From the NCBI GenBank assembly GCA_030324005.1, contig JARDVH010000073.1:93460376-93524375 (forward strand): a stretch of 64,000 nt of DNA, written 5' to 3'. The number at the start of each line of letters is the position of its first letter. Position 1 is the first letter of the stretch. A program made the position numbers and the translations under genes. The DNA comes from Negaprion brevirostris (lineage: Eukaryota). Positions 198 through 60,462 of this stretch are shown here, one piece after another. The notes below the pieces were generated by a model. It made no database searches. It had not been told where the DNA came from and saw only the letters and a list, made by a program, of their open reading frames with translations.

Positions 198-525
198 TTT
201 TTCATTCGTTCATGGATGTGGGAGTCGCTGGCTGGGCCAGCACTTATTGGCCATCGCTGAGAGCAGTCAAGAGCCAACCACAATGCTCTGCATCTGGAGT
301 CACATGTAGGCCGGACTAGGTAAGGATGACAGATTTCCATTAGTGAACCAGATGGGCTTTACGACAATGGTTTCAGGGTCATCACTGGATTTTAAATTCC
401 AGATTTTTATTGAATTCAAATTTCACCATCTGCCATGGTGAGATTTGAACTTGGGTCCAAAGAGCATTACCCTAGGTCTCTGGATTACTAGTGCAGTGAA
501 AATACCACTACATCACCACATCCCC
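198..525 (-). mobile_element. tRNA-headed SINE (family A, LINE-derived body and tail)
   Basis: Colinear with copies at 591-945 and 59897-60250; minus-strand B-box-like GTTCAAATC; tail GCCAGCGACTCCCACATCCATGAACGAATG. Confidence 0.85.
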
Positions 526-590
526 TAAACATTAAAAGAACAAAACATTTATTAATTTAAAAGGCTCAGTATTATTCATTAAGGATTTAA

Positions 591-945
591 ATTCATTCAT
601 AGGGCATGGGTTTCGCTGGCTGGCCAGCATTTATTGCCCATCCCTAGTTGCCCTTGGAGGGCAGTTGAGAATCAACCACATTGCTGTGGCTCTGGAGTCA
701 CAGGCAGGCCAGGCCAAGTAAGGAAAACAGATTTCCTTTCATAAAGGACATTAGTGAACCAGATGGGTTTTTGCAATCATTGACAATGGTTTTATGGTCA
801 TCAGTAGATTCTTACTTCCAAATTTTTAAAACTTGAATTTAAATTCCATCATCTGCTGTGGTGGGATTTGAACCCTGGTCCCCAGAACGTTAATTGAGTT
901 TCTGGATAACTAATCAAGTGATAATAACACTGGCCTATTGCCTCC
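591..945 (-). mobile_element. tRNA-headed SINE (family A), near full length
   Basis: B box GGTTCAAATCCC on minus strand at about 863-874; tail GGGCAATAAATGCTGGCCAGCCAGCG. Confidence 0.88.
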
Positions 946-950
946 ACAAT

Positions 951-2529: not shown

Positions 2530-3232
2530 GATGACAGGTGGGCAGAAGGAGTCTGCAATGTTACGGAAGTGTGAGGTCATTCACAAATTGGAATTTTTTT
2601 TAATGACAAGAGACAATGAGCTAAGGAGTAGCAAAGGGTATTCACGTATACAAATCACAAAAGGTTAGTGCGCAGATACAAAAAGTAATCATAAAACTAA
2701 TAAAATATTGGCCTTTATCTCAAGAAGTGATGACATTCAAAAGTCAGGAAGTAATGCTTCAGTTGTATCTATTTGGTCAGAGCCCATGTGAAGAATAGCA
2801 TTCAGTTTTGGACACAAATCCTAAGAAAAGATATATTGGTGATAAGGAATACAGTACAGAGTCACAAGAATGATACCAGAATGTAAAAGACTGAATTTTG
2901 AGGATAGTTTGTATTCATTTGGCTTGTATTCCATAGGCTTAGAATGCTGAAGGCGGATGCAAGGGGCATATAAAGGATAAAAGGATAATATTCTATTCTT
3001 CAGGTTTGAGGTGAGAGGGTAAGTTTAGGGGAGACATGCGGGAATAGTTTTTCACACAGAGGATGGTCGGTGCCTGGAGCGCATTGCCAATGCAGGTGAG
3101 GGAAGCAGGTACGTTAGCAACACGCAAGTTGTATCTTGATAGACACATGAACGGGAGATGAAACATAGGATAAAAACTGTGTATCGGCACAGGCCGAAGG
3201 TCCTGTTCCTGTGCTGTATAATTCTTTGTATT
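2530..3232 (+). mobile_element. CR1 LINE 3' portion, degenerate (possibly two abutting fragments)
   Basis: AAGTGTGAGGTCATTCAC (KCEVIH); TTGGCCTTTATC; CAGTTTTGG; terminal GGCCGAAGGTCCTGTTCCTGTGCTGTA. Confidence 0.8.
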
Positions 3233-14174: not shown

Positions 14175-14400
14175 AATACTGCAGTTGTTGGAATCTGAAA
14201 CAAAAACAGAAAAATGCTGGAAAATCTCAGCAGGTCTGACAGCATCTGAGGAGAGAGAACAGAGCTGTTGTTTCATGTCTGGATGACCTTCATCAGAGCC
14301 CTGACAAAGGGTCATCCAGACTTGAAAGGTTGGCTCTATCCTCTCTCCACAGATGCTTTCAGTCCTGCTGAGATTTTCCAGCATTTTTCTGATTTTGTAT
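14175..14400. mobile_element. Penelope-derived inverted-repeat element with hammerhead-like cores
   Basis: Arms of about 95 bp fold around 14298; minus strand CTGATGA-AGGTCATCCAGACAT-GAAA at 14271-14296. Confidence 0.8.
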
Positions 14401-14440
14401 CAATTTACTACTGTTTGATACAACGCTTTAAAAATATGTT

Positions 14441-19674: not shown

Positions 19675-19982
19675 GTTATTTATTTATTAATTAGTATTAC
19701 AAGTAGACTTACATTAACACTACAATGAAGTTACTGTGAAAATCCCCTAGTCGCCACACTCCGGCACCTGTTCAGGTACGCTGAGGGAGAATTTAGCATG
19801 GCAAATCCACCACACCTGCATGTCTTTTGGACTGTGGAAGGAAACCCGGGCATCGGAGGAAACCCATGCTGACATGGGGAGAACATGCAGACTCCGCAGA
19901 CAGTGATCCACGACAGGAATCGAACCTGGATCCCTGGTGCTGTGAGGCTGCAGTGCTAACCACTGTACCATTGTGCTGCCCC
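19675..19982 (-). mobile_element. V-SINE with tail B
   Basis: ACAAGTAGACTTACATTAACACTACAATGAAGTTACTGTGAAAATCC tail; tRNA head. Confidence 0.92.
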
Positions 19983-23929: not shown

Positions 23930-24420
23930 ATAGTCACTGTTGCAATATAAGAAATACAATTTGCACACAGTAACGTTTTACAAACAGCAATTAAATAATG
24001 ACCACATAATGTGCATGAGTGGTTTTGAGTGGGGTAAACTCCCTTTTCTTCAAAATAGTATTGTAGGATGTTTTAAGTTTATTTATTAGGGCCATATTAA
24101 CGTGGTGAAGTTACTGTAAAAATCTCCTAGGCGCCACTCTCTGGTGCATGTTTGGGTACACTGTGGGAGAATTTAGTATGGCCAATGCACCTAACAAGCG
24201 CGTCTTTTGGACTGTGGGAGGAAACTGGAGCACCCAAAGGAAACCCACGCAGACACAGGGAGAATGTATAGACTCCGCACAGACAGTGATCCAAGGTGGG
24301 AATCAAACCCAGGTCCCTGGCACTGTGAGGCAGCAGTGCCAACTACTGTGCCACCATTTAAAAGAGTTCATTTAAGAGAGTGAAAACCTCAAGCCTAATG
24401 GCTCATCCAAAGGATGGACA
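23930..24420 (-). mobile_element. DeuSINE fragment split by a V-SINE
   Basis: GTCACTGTTGCAAT...AATTTGCACACAG...AAACAGCAA; resumes CTCATCCAAAGGATGG after 24356. Confidence 0.6.
24077..24356 (-). mobile_element. V-SINE with tail B
   Basis: TGAAGTTACTGTAAAAATC tail; GGGAGAAT..AGACTCCGCACAGACAGTGA. Confidence 0.9.
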
Positions 24421-24479: not shown

Positions 24480-25640
24480 GTTCATGGAATGAGAGAGTCG
24501 CTGGCTGGACCAGCATCCATTGCCTATTCGTAGTTGCCCTTGAGAAATTGATGGCAAGTTCTCTCCCTGCAGTTCCTGTAGTGTGCTATTGGAAAGGAAA
24601 TTGGGAAGGAGTTTGACCCAGCGACAGTAAAGGAACGACAATATATTTCCAAGAAAGAATGACTTGGACGGGTTCCGCCAAGAAGTGGTGTCCCCAGCTA
24701 TCCCCTGTCCTTTTGCTTCTAATTGATAGGGGCTGTGGGTTGAGAAAATGCTGCCTATGGAGCCTTGTTGAGTTCCTGTAGTGCATTTTGTTGGTGGTAC
24801 ACAGGGCTGCCACTGTGCGTTAGTGGTGAAGGGAGTAATTGTTTATGGATGGGGCACCACAGTTCCAGTATAGTAGCTACGGCCTTTAAGAGTTCGCCAA
24901 CTCAGTCTGTCATGGTGCTACCAAGTCACTCTTGATGATGCATATTGAAGTCTGCCACTCAGAGTACATTGTGGGCCCTTGCCACACCCAGTGTTTCTTC
25001 CAATTGGTGTTCAACATGGAGAAGTATTGATGAATCACCTGAGGCAATGGGTTAGGGCTCAGGGCAGTATATGGTAATCAGCACAAGGTTTCCTTGCCCA
25101 TGCTTGACCTGAAACCATGAGAATTCATGGAGTTCTGGATTGAACCAGGGCAACTATCCTGACTGTATAATGCTATGCCACCACCTCTGCTGGTCAGTGT
25201 CACAGGACATACCAGGAATGGTGATGGTGGTGTCTGGGTCTGATTCTGCGACTATGTCAGGCTGTTAGTTCATTGGTCTGTTGGACAGCTCTCCCAATTT
25301 TGGCATAAGTCCACAGATGTCAGTAAGGGGGACTTTGCAGGGTCAACAAGAGATTGTCATTTTCAGTGTCTAGGTTGATGCTGGGTGGCCTGTCCAGTTT
25401 CCTTCTCATTGACTTTTTAGTGGTTTGATACAAGTGATTGGCTCGCTAGGCCATTTTAGAGGGTAGTTAAGAGTCAACCATATAGACCTAACCAGGTGGG
25501 GATGTCAGATTTCCTTCCCTAAAGGACATTAGTGAACGCAATGGGTGTTTACAAGAATGGTTACGTGGTCATCATTAAACTTTTCATTCCAGTTTTCTGC
25601 TAGGTTAAATTCAAATTCCACCATTTGCTGTGTTGGGATG
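24480..25640 (-). mobile_element. Internally deleted CR1/L2-group LINE: family A SINE body, AP endonuclease region, ORF C-terminus and tail; RT absent
   Basis: Minus strand gives ICGLMPKLGELS..QPDIV, SWFQVKHGQGNLVLITIY, VADFNMHHQE (APE motifs), then SLHH*RTVAALCTTNKMH; both termini match family A SINE. Confidence 0.85.
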
Positions 25641-25659
25641 AATTAAATTAATTTTTTTT

Positions 25660-25868
25660 TTAAATTTGGAATTCTAGTCTCAGTAATGCTATTCATAAAA
25701 CTATCAATCATTGCAAAAACCCATCTGGTTCACCAATGTCCTTTCAGGAAGGAAATCTGCCATCTTTACCTTATCTGGTCTACATTGACTCCAGACACTC
25801 AGACACTTAACTGCTCCTAAGGACAATGAGGGATGGCTAGCAACACCCACATCCCATGAACAAATAAA
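25660..25868 (+). mobile_element. Family A SINE, headless
   Basis: AAAAACCCATCTGGTTCACCAATGTCCTTTCAGGAAGGAAATCTGCC; tail CCCACATCCCATGAACAAAT. Confidence 0.85.
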
Positions 25869-25934
25869 CAGAAACTTACAGTGTGGCAATATTAACAGTG
25901 CTGATCTTCAGAGGAGGGTGGCATGTTTAGTTCA

Positions 25935-26794: not shown

Positions 26795-26897
26795 AAACAA
26801 AAAACAGAACATGCTGGAAAATCTCAGCAAGTCTGACAGCATCTGTGGAGAGAGAATAGAGCCAACGTTTCGAGTCTAGATGACCCTTCGTCTAGAT
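26795..26897 (-). mobile_element. Penelope-derived single arm with hammerhead-like core
   Basis: Minus strand GACGA-A-GGGTC-ATCTA-GACTC-GAAACGTT; same family as 14175-14400. Confidence 0.8.
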
Positions 26898-39918: not shown

Positions 39919-40240
39919 GGGGCAGCACGATGGCACAGTCGTTACCACTGCTGCCTCACAGCACCAGGGACCTGGGTTCGATTCCCAGCTTGGGTCACTG
40001 TCTGTGTGGAGTTTACACATTCTCTCTGTATCTGTGTGGGTTACCTCTGGGTGCTCCAGTTTCTTCCCACAGTCCAAAGCTGTGCAGGTTAGGTGGATTG
40101 GCACTGCTAAATTGCTCCTCAGTGTCAGAGGGATTTGCTAAGGTAAATGCATGGGGTTATAGCGATAGGGCTTGGGTGGGCAAGTGGTCAGTGCAGACTC
40201 GATGGGCTGAATGGCCTTTTTCTGCACTGTTGGGTTCTAA
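39919..40240 (+). mobile_element. HE1-type V-SINE, full length, CR1-type tail
   Basis: GGGCAGCACGATGGCACAG head, GGTTCGATTCC B box, V-domain and tail. Confidence 0.93.
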
Positions 40241-41614
40241 GACAGGGTGCATGTGTAATAAATGCCAATCACTACTGCTTATTTTATGCCCGCACTGAGG
40301 TTTTACCTGCCCTCAATATGGCGTTAATGTTTAAAGCATATTACATTTGCTATGCAAAGTAATTGGCAATGCAAGTATGTCATTGTATTGTATTGAGGAT
40401 GAGATCAATATGGGACTCACTTTGTGTAAAATTGATTATGTTTTTTGCAAGGATTTAATCAGTGACTCCAGTTTTTTTTTAATCTCGATATACTGCTGCA
40501 GGGTGATTAATACATAGGCACACACTGACAAATTTATAAGGCAAGATTGCAATCTGTTCCAGCATGCATTTTGAGGGTAATTTTTGCCTTTACCTCTTGG
40601 ACCAGATCATTCACTTGTTATAGAATCCATCTTCTTTTCATTTCTATTGAAAATCCATAAAAATAAAATTGAATAAAACTGATTCTCTGAATGTTTGGTC
40701 ATCCTCTCTTATCGGTTTAGTGTCCACATAATGACGAAAATACCTGTTTAAAATTTATCAATGTGAGTGTGCTTTCTTGGAAGGGATAGATAAGAATAGG
40801 GAAAGAAAAGACCAAGTGTAATTAAAATTCCCACGTAAATCACTCTATATTTCCCACAAAGTGATTCACCACACACCTATACTATATTCACATATATTCA
40901 GCACCATGAGGTAATTTTGGTGCGAGCATTGGGAACTCAACATTGGAACTTGATGCCATGGCTTTCAGTAGTGCCCACCAGCTTGATTTTATGAGAGGCA
41001 TCCAATTTGTAAGTCCTCTCTGCTTTTGCCACAAAATTAGGGACAGACAGTGGGCTTTTGAGGCAGGTGGGCCAACCAGAAGCAACATGTGAAGGACATC
41101 AACAGCCTTCACCATGGCTGCAGGAGGAGGGCTGGTGTGATGAAAGGAATGCAAGAGGCAAAGAGAGGGTTGAGAGAGGAAAGGGACCACAGCACTTAAT
41201 CCTCAGTGTTCTCAGTAGCAAAAGGCTTCAAGAGACACTGCTGAAATGGTAGGCCTCTGCTTACCCTTGACTACAAGCTTCCCATTGTCTTCTAGTTATT
41301 TACTGATCTCATGTAAAACTCGGTCCTGCTGCAGTGAACTTGCTTCCTGTGAGCTGGCAAGCCAAGCCATCATGGGGGAACCTGGTCACCTCAGGAACAA
41401 TTGGAATGGTGAAGAAAAAATGTAATCTAATTACCCCCTCTTATCAATTTCCCACCACTGCTGGTTGTGTGGACATCAGCTCGGTAATGCTGCCCCAGTA
41501 AATGTGCACCGAGGCAGAGACACGTCAGGGTGCCAGTCCAACATTTTTTTTGCCACTTTCCAAGCCCCCAACTTTAAATCTAAGGTGCTGGGAAAATTCA
41601 ACTTTATGAATTTA

Positions 41615-59896: not shown

Positions 59897-60250
59897 GAAG
59901 GCGATGGCCTAGCGATATTATTGCTTGGTTATGAATCCAGAAACTCAGCTAATGTTCTGAGGGCCCAGGTTCAAATCCCGCCATGGCAGATGGTTGAATT
60001 TGAATTCAATAAAAAATATCTGGAATTAAGAATCTAAAAGTGACCATGAAACCATTGTAAATTGCTGAAAAAACCCATCTGGTTCTCTTATGTATTTTAA
60101 GGAAGGCAATCTGCTATCCCTGCATGTTCTGGCCTACATGTGACTCCTGAACCACAGAAATGTGGTTGACTCTTGCCCAATTGTCCTTGGGCAACTAAGA
60201 ATGGGCAATTAATGCTGGCCAGTCAGTGATGCCCAGGTCCCATGAATACA
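59897..60250 (+). mobile_element. Family A tRNA-headed SINE, full length
   Basis: A-box-like TGGCCTAGCG at 59905; B box GGTTCAAATCC at 59968-59978; tail GGGCAATTAATGCTGGCCAG..CCCATGAAT. Confidence 0.9.
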
Positions 60251-60462
60251 TTTTTAGATCTTTTAAGCTCCCTTTAAATAGTGCCAACCCCTGTGAAGCC
60301 AACCCCAACTGGTAGTACTAACCATGCTCTGATAGATTTCTACCTATGACATACTCCAATGAGCTAACACATACCTATGTAACTAGTTCTACCCTTAAAA
60401 TACACTAATTTTAAATTTATAAACCAAACCCTACATTAAGAGGAAGCCCTGATCTTATTGCC

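What the first reader, a model, noticed from the sequence alone, without database searches (positions are those of the whole stretch)
24480..25640. A SINE that appears to be the two ends of a LINE, with an RT-less intermediate in the same window
Seen (element strand): the short SINE reads AACTGCCCTC|CAAGGGCAACT at its internal junction (near 656). The long copy has the same 5' block ending AACTACCCTC (near 25459), runs through a short leader into AP-endonuclease codons, jumps near 24860 to the ORF C-terminus, and reaches CTCAAGGGCAACT plus the same tail (near 24544). So SINE = 5' block + 3' tail joined at a CTC microhomology. No ORF1 lies between the 5' block and the endonuclease. Inference: the parent may be a single-ORF LINE carrying the tRNA-like head that spawned a deletion series. 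Bipartite LINE-derived SINEs are known, but an autonomous LINE with a tRNA head would be unusual. Caveat: the long copy breaks at the 3' edge of the B box, so its A/B boxes are not observed.
Basis: partly seen in the sequence, partly recalled or inferred. Interest (0 to 1): 0.72.

Follow-up and report, generated by a model that had tools for sequence, protein, structure and literature searches.

The report
tRNA-headed shark LINE that sheds SINEs
This is a worn, internally deleted copy of a 3.3-kb shark-and-ray jumping gene that codes for its own copying enzyme, starts with a tRNA-like promoter head and lacks the T-run stop signals of RNA polymerase III, so it is likely read by that small-RNA polymerase, and it likely gave rise to the genome's matching short SINEs by losing its middle.

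Summary
24480-25640 is an old copy of a 3.3-kb single-ORF LINE. Head + endonuclease + RT + tail stand at 8 fetched loci, and 28 of 29 related loci carry the SINE 5' block directly before the endonuclease. The family is the elasmobranch Zenon LINE (PMC13343379); its published consensuses begin with this head, but the paper's main text never mentions tRNA or Pol III. The head aligns with tRNA-Thr(AGT) and has A/B boxes. The family majority has no T4 run and no 4-of-5-T window in 3.2 kb (12±4 expected with codons kept; host CR1 has 22), and no in-frame AUG before the endonuclease. This fits Pol III transcription, which is untested. SINE subfamilies match the old or young LINE at both ends, and 10 of 40 unselected junction copies are short head+tail deletion products with different junctions. 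Two corrections: the CTC microhomology is off by one base, and the 24860 deletion was found at this locus only, so it is not shown to be a replicated intermediate. The scan has noted this LINE before on other DNA, including in this genome.

The parts
25459..25640 (-). 5' block shared with the SINE (from the 3' edge of the B box to CCCTC), old-type; A and B boxes lost in this copy
   Evidence: old group in the endonuclease tree
25337..25458 (-). leader: hairpin-like TGAAATGGCC..CAGTTG, then an Arg-rich frame that runs into the endonuclease; no ORF1, no in-frame AUG in the family
24860..25336 (-). AP-endonuclease codons, decayed, about 70% identical to the young family majority
   Evidence: Pfam PF14529/PF03372 on sister copies
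24859..24860 (-). internal deletion of about 1.94 kb (family nt 935 to 2876) that removes the RT; found at this locus only; bridged in two other organisms
24543..24859 (-). C-terminal codons of the ORF
24480..24542 (-). tail shared with the SINE: last codons of the ORF, the family's stop position (TAC in this copy, TAG in the majority) and 3' UTR
589..950 (-). young SINE, junction class A (CCCTC|CAAGGG at 657|656), full tRNA-like head
200..525 (-). old-type SINE of the same family, junction class E (block joined directly to AGGGATGGG-type tail)
59897..60256 (+). young-type SINE of the same family, junction class B
25645..25870 (+). headless SINE of the same family lying 5'-to-5' against the long copy

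Best explanation
The locus is a dead, internally deleted copy of the elasmobranch Zenon LINE, a 3.3-kb element with one endonuclease-RT reading frame whose 5' end is a tRNA-like head with A and B boxes; it is likely transcribed by RNA polymerase III, and its matching SINEs likely arose from it by repeated loss of the middle. Shown: the head is the family's 5' end in old and young subfamilies; there is one 979-codon stop-free frame; the sense strand is free of T4 runs and 4-of-5-T windows; there is no in-frame AUG before the endonuclease; SINEs match the contemporary LINE at both ends; short head+tail copies with many junctions exist. Inferred: (1) Pol III starts at the head and reads through 3.3 kb because terminators were selected against; (2) the uncapped RNA would need cap-independent, non-AUG initiation, or a frameshift from the conserved out-of-frame AUG; (3) during target-primed reverse transcription the RT likely jumps from the last 70-160 nt to just behind the leader hairpin. 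Because the head is already a promoter, one jump would make a complete SINE. Odds by step: head integral to an autonomous LINE 0.97; SINEs from LINE deletion 0.75; Pol III use 0.6.
For: Head at the 5' end: 28 of 29 related loci have the block before the endonuclease. 44 of 68 LINE-class blocks reach the first 25 nt of the head, 31 of them nt 1-2 (queries favoured such copies). 8 loci have head+ORF+tail, and L314 is one 3211-bp match. Old and young head types split on the endonuclease tree with 1 change, SH-aLRT 100. Published consensuses of four sharks and a ray begin with the same head; hagfish and coelacanth Zenons do not (first 400 letters, by eye). tRNA origin: colinear with genomic tRNA-Thr(AGT) plus a ~19-nt insert, z 6.7-6.9, 0 of 200 shuffles; both boxes within 1 mismatch in 24 of 42 LINE and 46 of 75 SINE heads. 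ORF: 979 codons, GDFN, SDH, FADD, stop in the tail; RVT_1 at E 9e-19. Terminator purge: TTT 5 vs 28.2 expected and T4+ 0 vs 4.6, with A/C/G runs near expectation; 4-of-5-T windows 0 vs 12.0±3.9, 0 of 2000 synonymous shuffles; old subfamily 4 vs 27.6; host CR1 of like age TTT 26 vs 25.3 and T4+ 4 vs 4.6; raw copies 0.55 vs 3.92 T4 runs per kb; 41 of 41 long ORFs among 80 metagenome RT loci have 7-49 T4 runs. SINE origin: the 5' block splits by age, not by class; tails do the same; 10 of 40 junction copies taken in genome order are short head+tail elements with LINE-only letters and different junctions.
Against: No transcript, start site or polymerase occupancy was examined. The head gives no Rfam tRNA hit in 7 loci, and only 31 tRNAs of 7 isotypes were compared, so the Thr call is provisional. 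Host CR1 is itself mildly short of 4-of-5-T windows against synonymous shuffles (22 vs 34.3±5.1; 10 of 2000). One metagenome ORF has a similar TTT z-score (L255, -3.5) though it keeps 12 T4 runs. The T4 count alone is not significant with codons kept (P 0.14 on 798 codons). Only one control LINE family was used, and the metagenome relatives are T-richer. No 5' window folds better than shuffles (z -1.3 to +0.7), so no initiation structure is shown. Old/young differences in the leader do not decide between the endonuclease frame and the out-of-frame AUG. The abundant SINE classes A, B, C and E all nest inside class D's breakpoints, so they may be secondary deletions of one SINE. Class D keeps one junction across old and young types, which needs a hotspot or exchange.
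Confidence: 0.6

Rival explanations
1. The LINE carries the head but is an ordinary Pol II element (internal promoter or host read-through). The head is a passenger kept by exchange with the Pol III SINE, and T-poverty has another cause such as codon bias or avoidance of U-rich processing signals.
For: LINEs are held to be Pol II-transcribed, and Pol III products are short (PMC10886601, passages). A 3.3-kb uncapped mRNA poses a translation problem. CR1 shows mild depletion as well.
Against: The purge is specific to T and to the sense strand, survives codon-preserving shuffles, holds in both subfamilies, and removes interrupted runs of the kind that human Pol III also obeys (PMC3141230, abstract). 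Nine out-of-frame ATGs precede the conserved leader AUG, which is itself out of frame, which suits cap-scanning poorly.
Confidence: 0.27
2. The SINE came first in the classical way (a tRNA head added to a bipartite LINE derivative); the LINE then captured the SINE's 5' part by template switching and has been re-homogenised with it.
For: This is the model in PMC5786205. Class D keeps one junction in old and young types. LINE conservation drops where class D's 5' part ends. A few LINEs with SINE-type head states sit among other young endonucleases, at weak support. Non-elasmobranch Zenons lack the head, so it was gained at some time.
Against: 10 of 40 unselected copies are short elements with LINE-only letters on one or both sides of different junctions, so LINE-to-short deletion happens often. 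Head type follows the endonuclease lineage with 1 change. This rival concerns the first origin and is compatible with later Pol III use.
Confidence: 0.2
3. The LINE is target-specific and inserts into the class D SINE at its junction, so head and tail are target DNA and not part of the element.
For: The full-length structure equals SINE-D 5' part + 2.9 kb + SINE-D 3' part.
Against: 0 of 17 5'-truncated, tail-bearing copies show the SINE block end in the 41 nt upstream (by eye). The ORF's last codons and stop lie inside the tail. There is no poly(A) at the internal junction.
Confidence: 0.02
4. The window copy is a chance juxtaposition of a SINE and a LINE fragment, or an assembly chimera.
For: The copy is 70% diverged, headless, and next to an inverted SINE.
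Against: The same junction occurs at 28 of 29 loci, there are 542 exact matches of the 17-nt block-to-leader motif with control 0, and contigs of two other organisms bridge the deletion.
Confidence: 0.01

Closest known systems
Elasmobranch Zenon LINEs (CarCar_, RhiTyp_, ScyCan_, HypSab_, SquAca_Zenon; Stuart et al. 2026, PMC13343379)
   Same: The first 400 letters of the published consensuses match this family's head, body and leader by eye. Length about 3.3 kb, no ORF1, APE+RT, poly(A) tail. R. typus has the young head type; C. carcharias, S. canicula and S. acanthias have the old type.
   Different: The paper's main text has 0 occurrences of 'tRNA' or 'polymerase III' and describes no partner SINE in the passages seen. 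The head's tRNA nature, the terminator purge, the missing AUG and the SINE series are not stated there.
Persaeus, short internally deleted element of lepidopteran Zenon (PMC6740152, passages)
   Same: A Zenon derivative made of the 5' end plus the ORF end and 3' UTR with poly(A); variable breakpoints; several independent origins; template jumping proposed.
   Different: Persaeus has no tRNA homology and no Pol III promoter. Here the deletion product carries A/B boxes and so is built as a SINE.
Bipartite LINE-derived SINEs (Bov-tA, AfroSINE, CoeSINE4, SINE2_Gav; PMC5786205, main text read)
   Same: tRNA head + LINE 5' part + LINE 3' part.
   Different: There the head is added to the deleted derivative and the parents are RTE or Vingi. 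Here the parent is CR1-group and already bears the head. [quoted passage not shown]
Known shark SINEs HE1 (V-SINE, partner HER1), SacSINE1 (Deu, L2 tail), CmiSINE/SINE2-1_CM (CORE, L2 tail)
   Same: tRNA-headed SINEs of cartilaginous fishes that share a tail with a LINE (PMC3747384, PMC5499810).
   Different: The SINE2-1_CM 3' end printed in the PMC3472496 supplement is unlike this tail, and their partners are CR1/L2. HE1 and SacSINE1 sequences were not compared here.
R2 retrotransposons; BovB with SINE-derived 5' ends (both recalled, no call; the BovB paper was not held)
   Same: R2: a LINE RNA made by a polymerase other than Pol II, uncapped, translated without a normal start. BovB: a LINE that has taken up SINE sequence at its end.
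   Different: R2 depends on host Pol I co-transcription and a ribozyme. No ribozyme hit was found here. A terminator purge is not recalled for BovB.

Membership tests
Zenon (CR1 group) LINE | single ORF with APE and RT, no ORF1 | tested here: met
   979-codon stop-free frame, short leader; Pfam RVT_1 and Exo_endo_phos_2
Zenon (CR1 group) LINE | poly(A) tail | tested here: met
   copies end GAATAAAAAA
Zenon (CR1 group) LINE | sequence identity with named elasmobranch Zenon consensuses | tested here: met
   exact motifs from my loci found in 6 supplement rows; first 400 letters agree by eye; rest of each row not visible
Zenon (CR1 group) LINE | RT falls in the Zenon clade against labelled references | tested here: inconclusive
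   no labelled references on hand; RT is 29% identical to host CR1 and groups away from it among invertebrate-type relatives, unstarred
SINE2 (tRNA-derived SINE), for the short elements | tRNA-related head with A and B boxes | tested here: met
   no Rfam hit on 7 LINE loci
SINE2 (tRNA-derived SINE), for the short elements | LINE-related tail, non-coding, many dispersed copies | tested here: met
   2669 and 1302 exact junction matches, controls 0
SINE2 (tRNA-derived SINE), for the short elements | transcription by Pol III | not testable with these tools
   needs inhibitor, ChIP or 5'-end data
SIDE (short internally deleted element) | both ends colinear with one autonomous LINE, middle missing | tested here: met
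SIDE (short internally deleted element) | no Pol III promoter (as Persaeus) | tested here: not met
   A/B boxes present
TPRT insertion hallmarks | target-site duplication | tested here: inconclusive
   repeats of 5 nt or more in 23 of 52 full SINEs vs about 16 in mismatched controls; none clear in 8 full LINEs
RTE/Vingi-type bipartite SINE | parent LINE of the RTE or Vingi clade | tested here: not met
   parent matches published Zenon, CR1 group
Pol III transcription unit (for the full LINE) | no T4+ or degenerate terminator on the non-template strand | tested here: met
Pol III transcription unit (for the full LINE) | Pol III/TFIIIC-dependent, uncapped transcript | not testable with these tools
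   needs RNA experiments

The most novel reading that the evidence does not exclude
Elasmobranch Zenon is an autonomous, protein-coding LINE transcribed end to end by RNA polymerase III from a tRNA-derived promoter and translated without cap or AUG. It has kept this design since before sharks and rays split, and it works as a standing SINE factory: any RT jump from the tail to the end of the 5' hairpin yields a ready-made tRNA SINE.
Probability: 0.5. Interest if true: 0.9.

Novelty: new variant of a known kind. Interest (0 to 1): 0.72.

Why it matters
The working rule is that LINEs use Pol II and SINEs use Pol III, and that SINEs are born when a small-RNA head is fused to a LINE tail. A LINE that carries the head and has purged Pol III stop signals from a 980-codon gene would break the first rule and give a natural case of a 3.3-kb Pol III mRNA. 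It would also offer a one-step route for SINE birth that can be followed in the genome, from one-off deletion copies to families with thousands of exact junction matches. Each step is directly testable with a promoter reporter, inhibitors and 5'-end mapping.

Tried and rejected
Rfam scan of 7 LINE loci: no tRNA or ribozyme hit at E<=10. Exact body motif in viral and metagenome contigs: 0 and 0 matches, so a recalled resemblance to coral repeats stays unsupported. 80 metagenome RT loci: no match to the 5' block, and only 3 passed my filter for an intact APE-bearing ORF, none with an A/B pair upstream; too few to say anything about relatives' 5' ends. Protein searches: close relatives only in Rhincodon, Heptranchias and Mobula (59-73%); others 45% or less. 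An RTEX assignment, first guessed from memory, was dropped. SINE2-1_CM as the SINE's identity was rejected. TSD test inconclusive. MFE folding of the 5' region and tail showed no excess stability. Sequencing-run search: no RNA holder listed; this says nothing on expression. Whether contigs of more distant organisms hold the head-to-endonuclease junction was not obtained from run data. The first two majority builds showed frameshifts caused by columns missing in the reference copy; regional realignment (+1, +13, +15, +7 nt, the modal state in the copies) removed them. Literature searches listed no paper that, by title or abstract start, describes a Pol III-transcribed autonomous LINE or this SINE. 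Repbase/Dfam entries, subscription journals, bioRxiv supplements and the whale-shark genome paper's text were not seen and may name the SINE.

Full report
OBSERVATION. On the - strand, 25640-25459 aligns with the body of the SINE at 589-950 (74%), beginning at the 3' edge of the B box. A short leader follows, then decayed endonuclease codons from 25336, a jump at 24860|24859, ORF C-terminal codons, and the SINE's tail from 24542. Against the family majority the jump joins nt 935 to nt 2876. Contigs of two other coded organisms bridge it, so it is old DNA and not an assembly error. Two details fail. The SINE junction is CCCTC+CAAGGG, one base more than a CTC microhomology would give; none of the 100 listed matches, of 2669, shows the CTC-joined form. 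And the 24860 junction is spanned by 0 of 39 other scored hits; it is one of 10 distinct ORF-internal deletions, each seen at one locus.

THE PARENT EXISTS. A search of the own genome with the leader and endonuclease gave 29 other loci, 28 with the SINE block directly upstream. Longer fetches showed head + endonuclease + RT + C-terminus + tail at 8 loci, L314 being a single 3211-bp match. 44 of 68 LINE-class blocks reach the first 25 nt of the head and 31 start at nt 1-2, as the SINEs do (these queries favour such copies). The column majority of about 23 young copies is 3294 nt long with one stop-free frame of 979 codons holding GDFN, SDH and FADD; its stop lies inside the SINE-shared tail. 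Pfam gives RVT_1 and Exo_endo_phos_2 on real copies. There is no room for ORF1. Young pieces are 84-93% identical to the majority and the window copy is 70%. No fetched copy was seen to be intact.

IDENTITY. Notes of this scan pointed to PMC13343379. I checked it: motifs from my loci occur in its supplement rows, and the first 400 letters of CarCar_, RhiTyp_, ScyCan_, SquAca_ and HypSab_Zenon match the head, body and leader by eye, while hagfish and coelacanth Zenon begin with unrelated, T-rich sequence. The paper defines Zenon by no ORF1 and a poly(A) tail and has no 'tRNA' or 'polymerase III' in its main text. Close protein relatives come only from Rhincodon, Heptranchias and Mobula, and the RT is 29% identical to host CR1. 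The head is therefore an elasmobranch gain that likely predates the shark-ray split (inference from the species list).

THE HEAD. It is colinear with a genomic tRNA-Thr(AGT), with about 19 nt added in the variable loop (z 6.7-6.9; 0 of 200 shuffles; 31 tRNAs of 7 isotypes compared). The old head keeps the loop CTAGTAA of that tRNA. Both boxes are within one mismatch in 24 of 42 LINE heads and 46 of 75 SINE heads. Rfam does not call it a tRNA. The 5' block falls into an old and a young type, each holding LINEs and SINEs (116 blocks). On a tree of the endonuclease region the two head types need one change, at SH-aLRT 100, and the window copy lies among the old ones. The head was thus inherited with the ORF through at least two bursts.

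TERMINATOR PURGE. Human Pol III stops at T4 or more and at degenerate T-runs (PMC3141230, abstract). The family's sense strand has TTT 5 times (28.2 expected) and no T4 run (4.6 expected), with A, C and G runs near expectation. It has no 5-nt window with 4 T, against 23.8±6.8 in base shuffles and 12.0±3.9 when protein and codon usage are kept (0 of 2000). The old subfamily has 4 such windows against 27.6. Phe is 1.8% of residues against a median of 4.2% in 105 relatives. Controls: a host CR1 family of like age, treated alike, has TTT 26 vs 25.3 and T4 4 vs 4.6; raw copies have 0.55 vs 3.92 T4 runs per kb; 41 long RT ORFs among 80 metagenome loci have 7-49 T4 runs. Against: CR1 is mildly depleted in the synonymous test (22 vs 34.3±5.1, 10 of 2000); the T4 count alone is not significant with codons kept (P 0.14); one metagenome ORF has a similar TTT z-score; and one control family is few.

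TRANSLATION START. The long frame opens after a TGA at the end of the SINE block, and its first Met is codon 182, inside the endonuclease. An Arg-rich stretch precedes the endonuclease in frame, as in relative P0016. A conserved AUG in the leader is out of frame in both subfamilies, and the spacing upstream of it is not frame-preserving. Non-AUG initiation or a frameshift is needed; my data do not choose between them, and no window folds better than shuffles. R2's uncapped translation is a recalled precedent only.

SINE ORIGIN. Five junction classes recur. D (CAGTT|CAAGGG) has 1302 exact matches, control 0; A, the window's SINE, has 2669; B, C and E were seen. A, B, C and E nest within D's breakpoints, so some may be secondary. 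Tails track age as the 5' blocks do: among scorable copies, young LINEs 23 of 24 and young class A/B SINEs 16 of 17 have one tail type; old LINEs 6 of 7 and class E SINEs 17 of 18 have the other (unscorable copies left out). The first 40 of 542 matches to the LINE-specific motif CAAGCCACTCAGTTGTA, taken in genome order, gave 21 that continue into the leader, 10 short head+tail elements that rejoin the tail region (family nt 3132-3227) within 0-23 nt in nine cases and 62 nt in one, 8 unassigned (3 with sub-threshold leader scores) and 1 cut by N. The ten have different junctions and LINE-only letters, so they come from the LINE. Such clustering of breakpoints suits an RT jump between the two ends better than later random deletion (inference). 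Target-specific insertion into the SINE is excluded: none of 17 5'-truncated copies abuts the SINE block. How the head was first gained is not resolved.

COMPARISON. Zenon-derived internal-deletion elements with repeated origins are known in Lepidoptera, without a Pol III promoter (PMC6740152, passages). Bipartite SINEs were described from RTE and Vingi, with the head added afterwards; a tRNA-like stretch in RTE-1_DAn is mentioned in passing (PMC5786205, parts 1-4 of 5). Human tRNA/L1 chimeras are few, mostly half-length and antisense (PMC13174262, passages). Also seen: passages of PMC6685494, PMC4824008, PMC5804259, PMC3747384, PMC1845163, PMC5753468 and PMC10886601; parts 1-2 of 6 of PMC5499810; supplement passages of PMC3472496. 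Ten searches listed no paper on a Pol III-transcribed autonomous LINE; Repbase, Dfam and subscription papers were not seen.

VERDICT. The locus itself is an ordinary decayed copy. The family is catalogued, but its tRNA-like head, terminator-free coding strand, missing AUG and SINE-shedding are not described in the papers I read. New variant of a known kind; interest 0.72. Pol III use is the likeliest mechanism (0.6) and is untested. The scan has reported the same reading for this family on other DNA; my counts were made before I saw those notes, and the notes are not independent evidence.

Noticed in passing
window 25645-25870 (+): A headless SINE of the same family lies 5'-to-5' against the long copy. 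Both lack their heads, as if the centre of a head-to-head palindrome was deleted or a 5' inversion occurred at insertion.
   Followed up: partly
window 14187-14411: Inverted repeat with 102-nt arms, 83% complementary, 21-nt spacer; related pieces near 26795-26892. Looks like a MITE.
   Followed up: no
window 24106-24357, 19677-19970, 39925-40242 and many more: A second, very abundant ~320-nt tRNA-headed SINE (V-SINE/HE1-like by recall) with about 20 copies or fragments in the window.
   Followed up: no
protein P0015 (Branchiostoma lanceolatum Hypp5830): The only relative among 105 with less Phe (1.5%) than the shark family; its DNA could be checked for a T-run purge and a tRNA head.
   Followed up: no
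window 200-950: An old-type and a young-type SINE of the family lie in tandem on the same strand, about 65 nt apart.
   Followed up: partly
L035:2101-3350 and L353-L382: A canonical CR1 family with a 572-codon open majority frame and copies 80-85% alike; used here only as a control.
   Followed up: partly
L139-L151 (G000 C154, 8.02-8.10 Mb): Cluster of tRNA genes, many called Cys(GCA) by ARAGORN.
   Followed up: no
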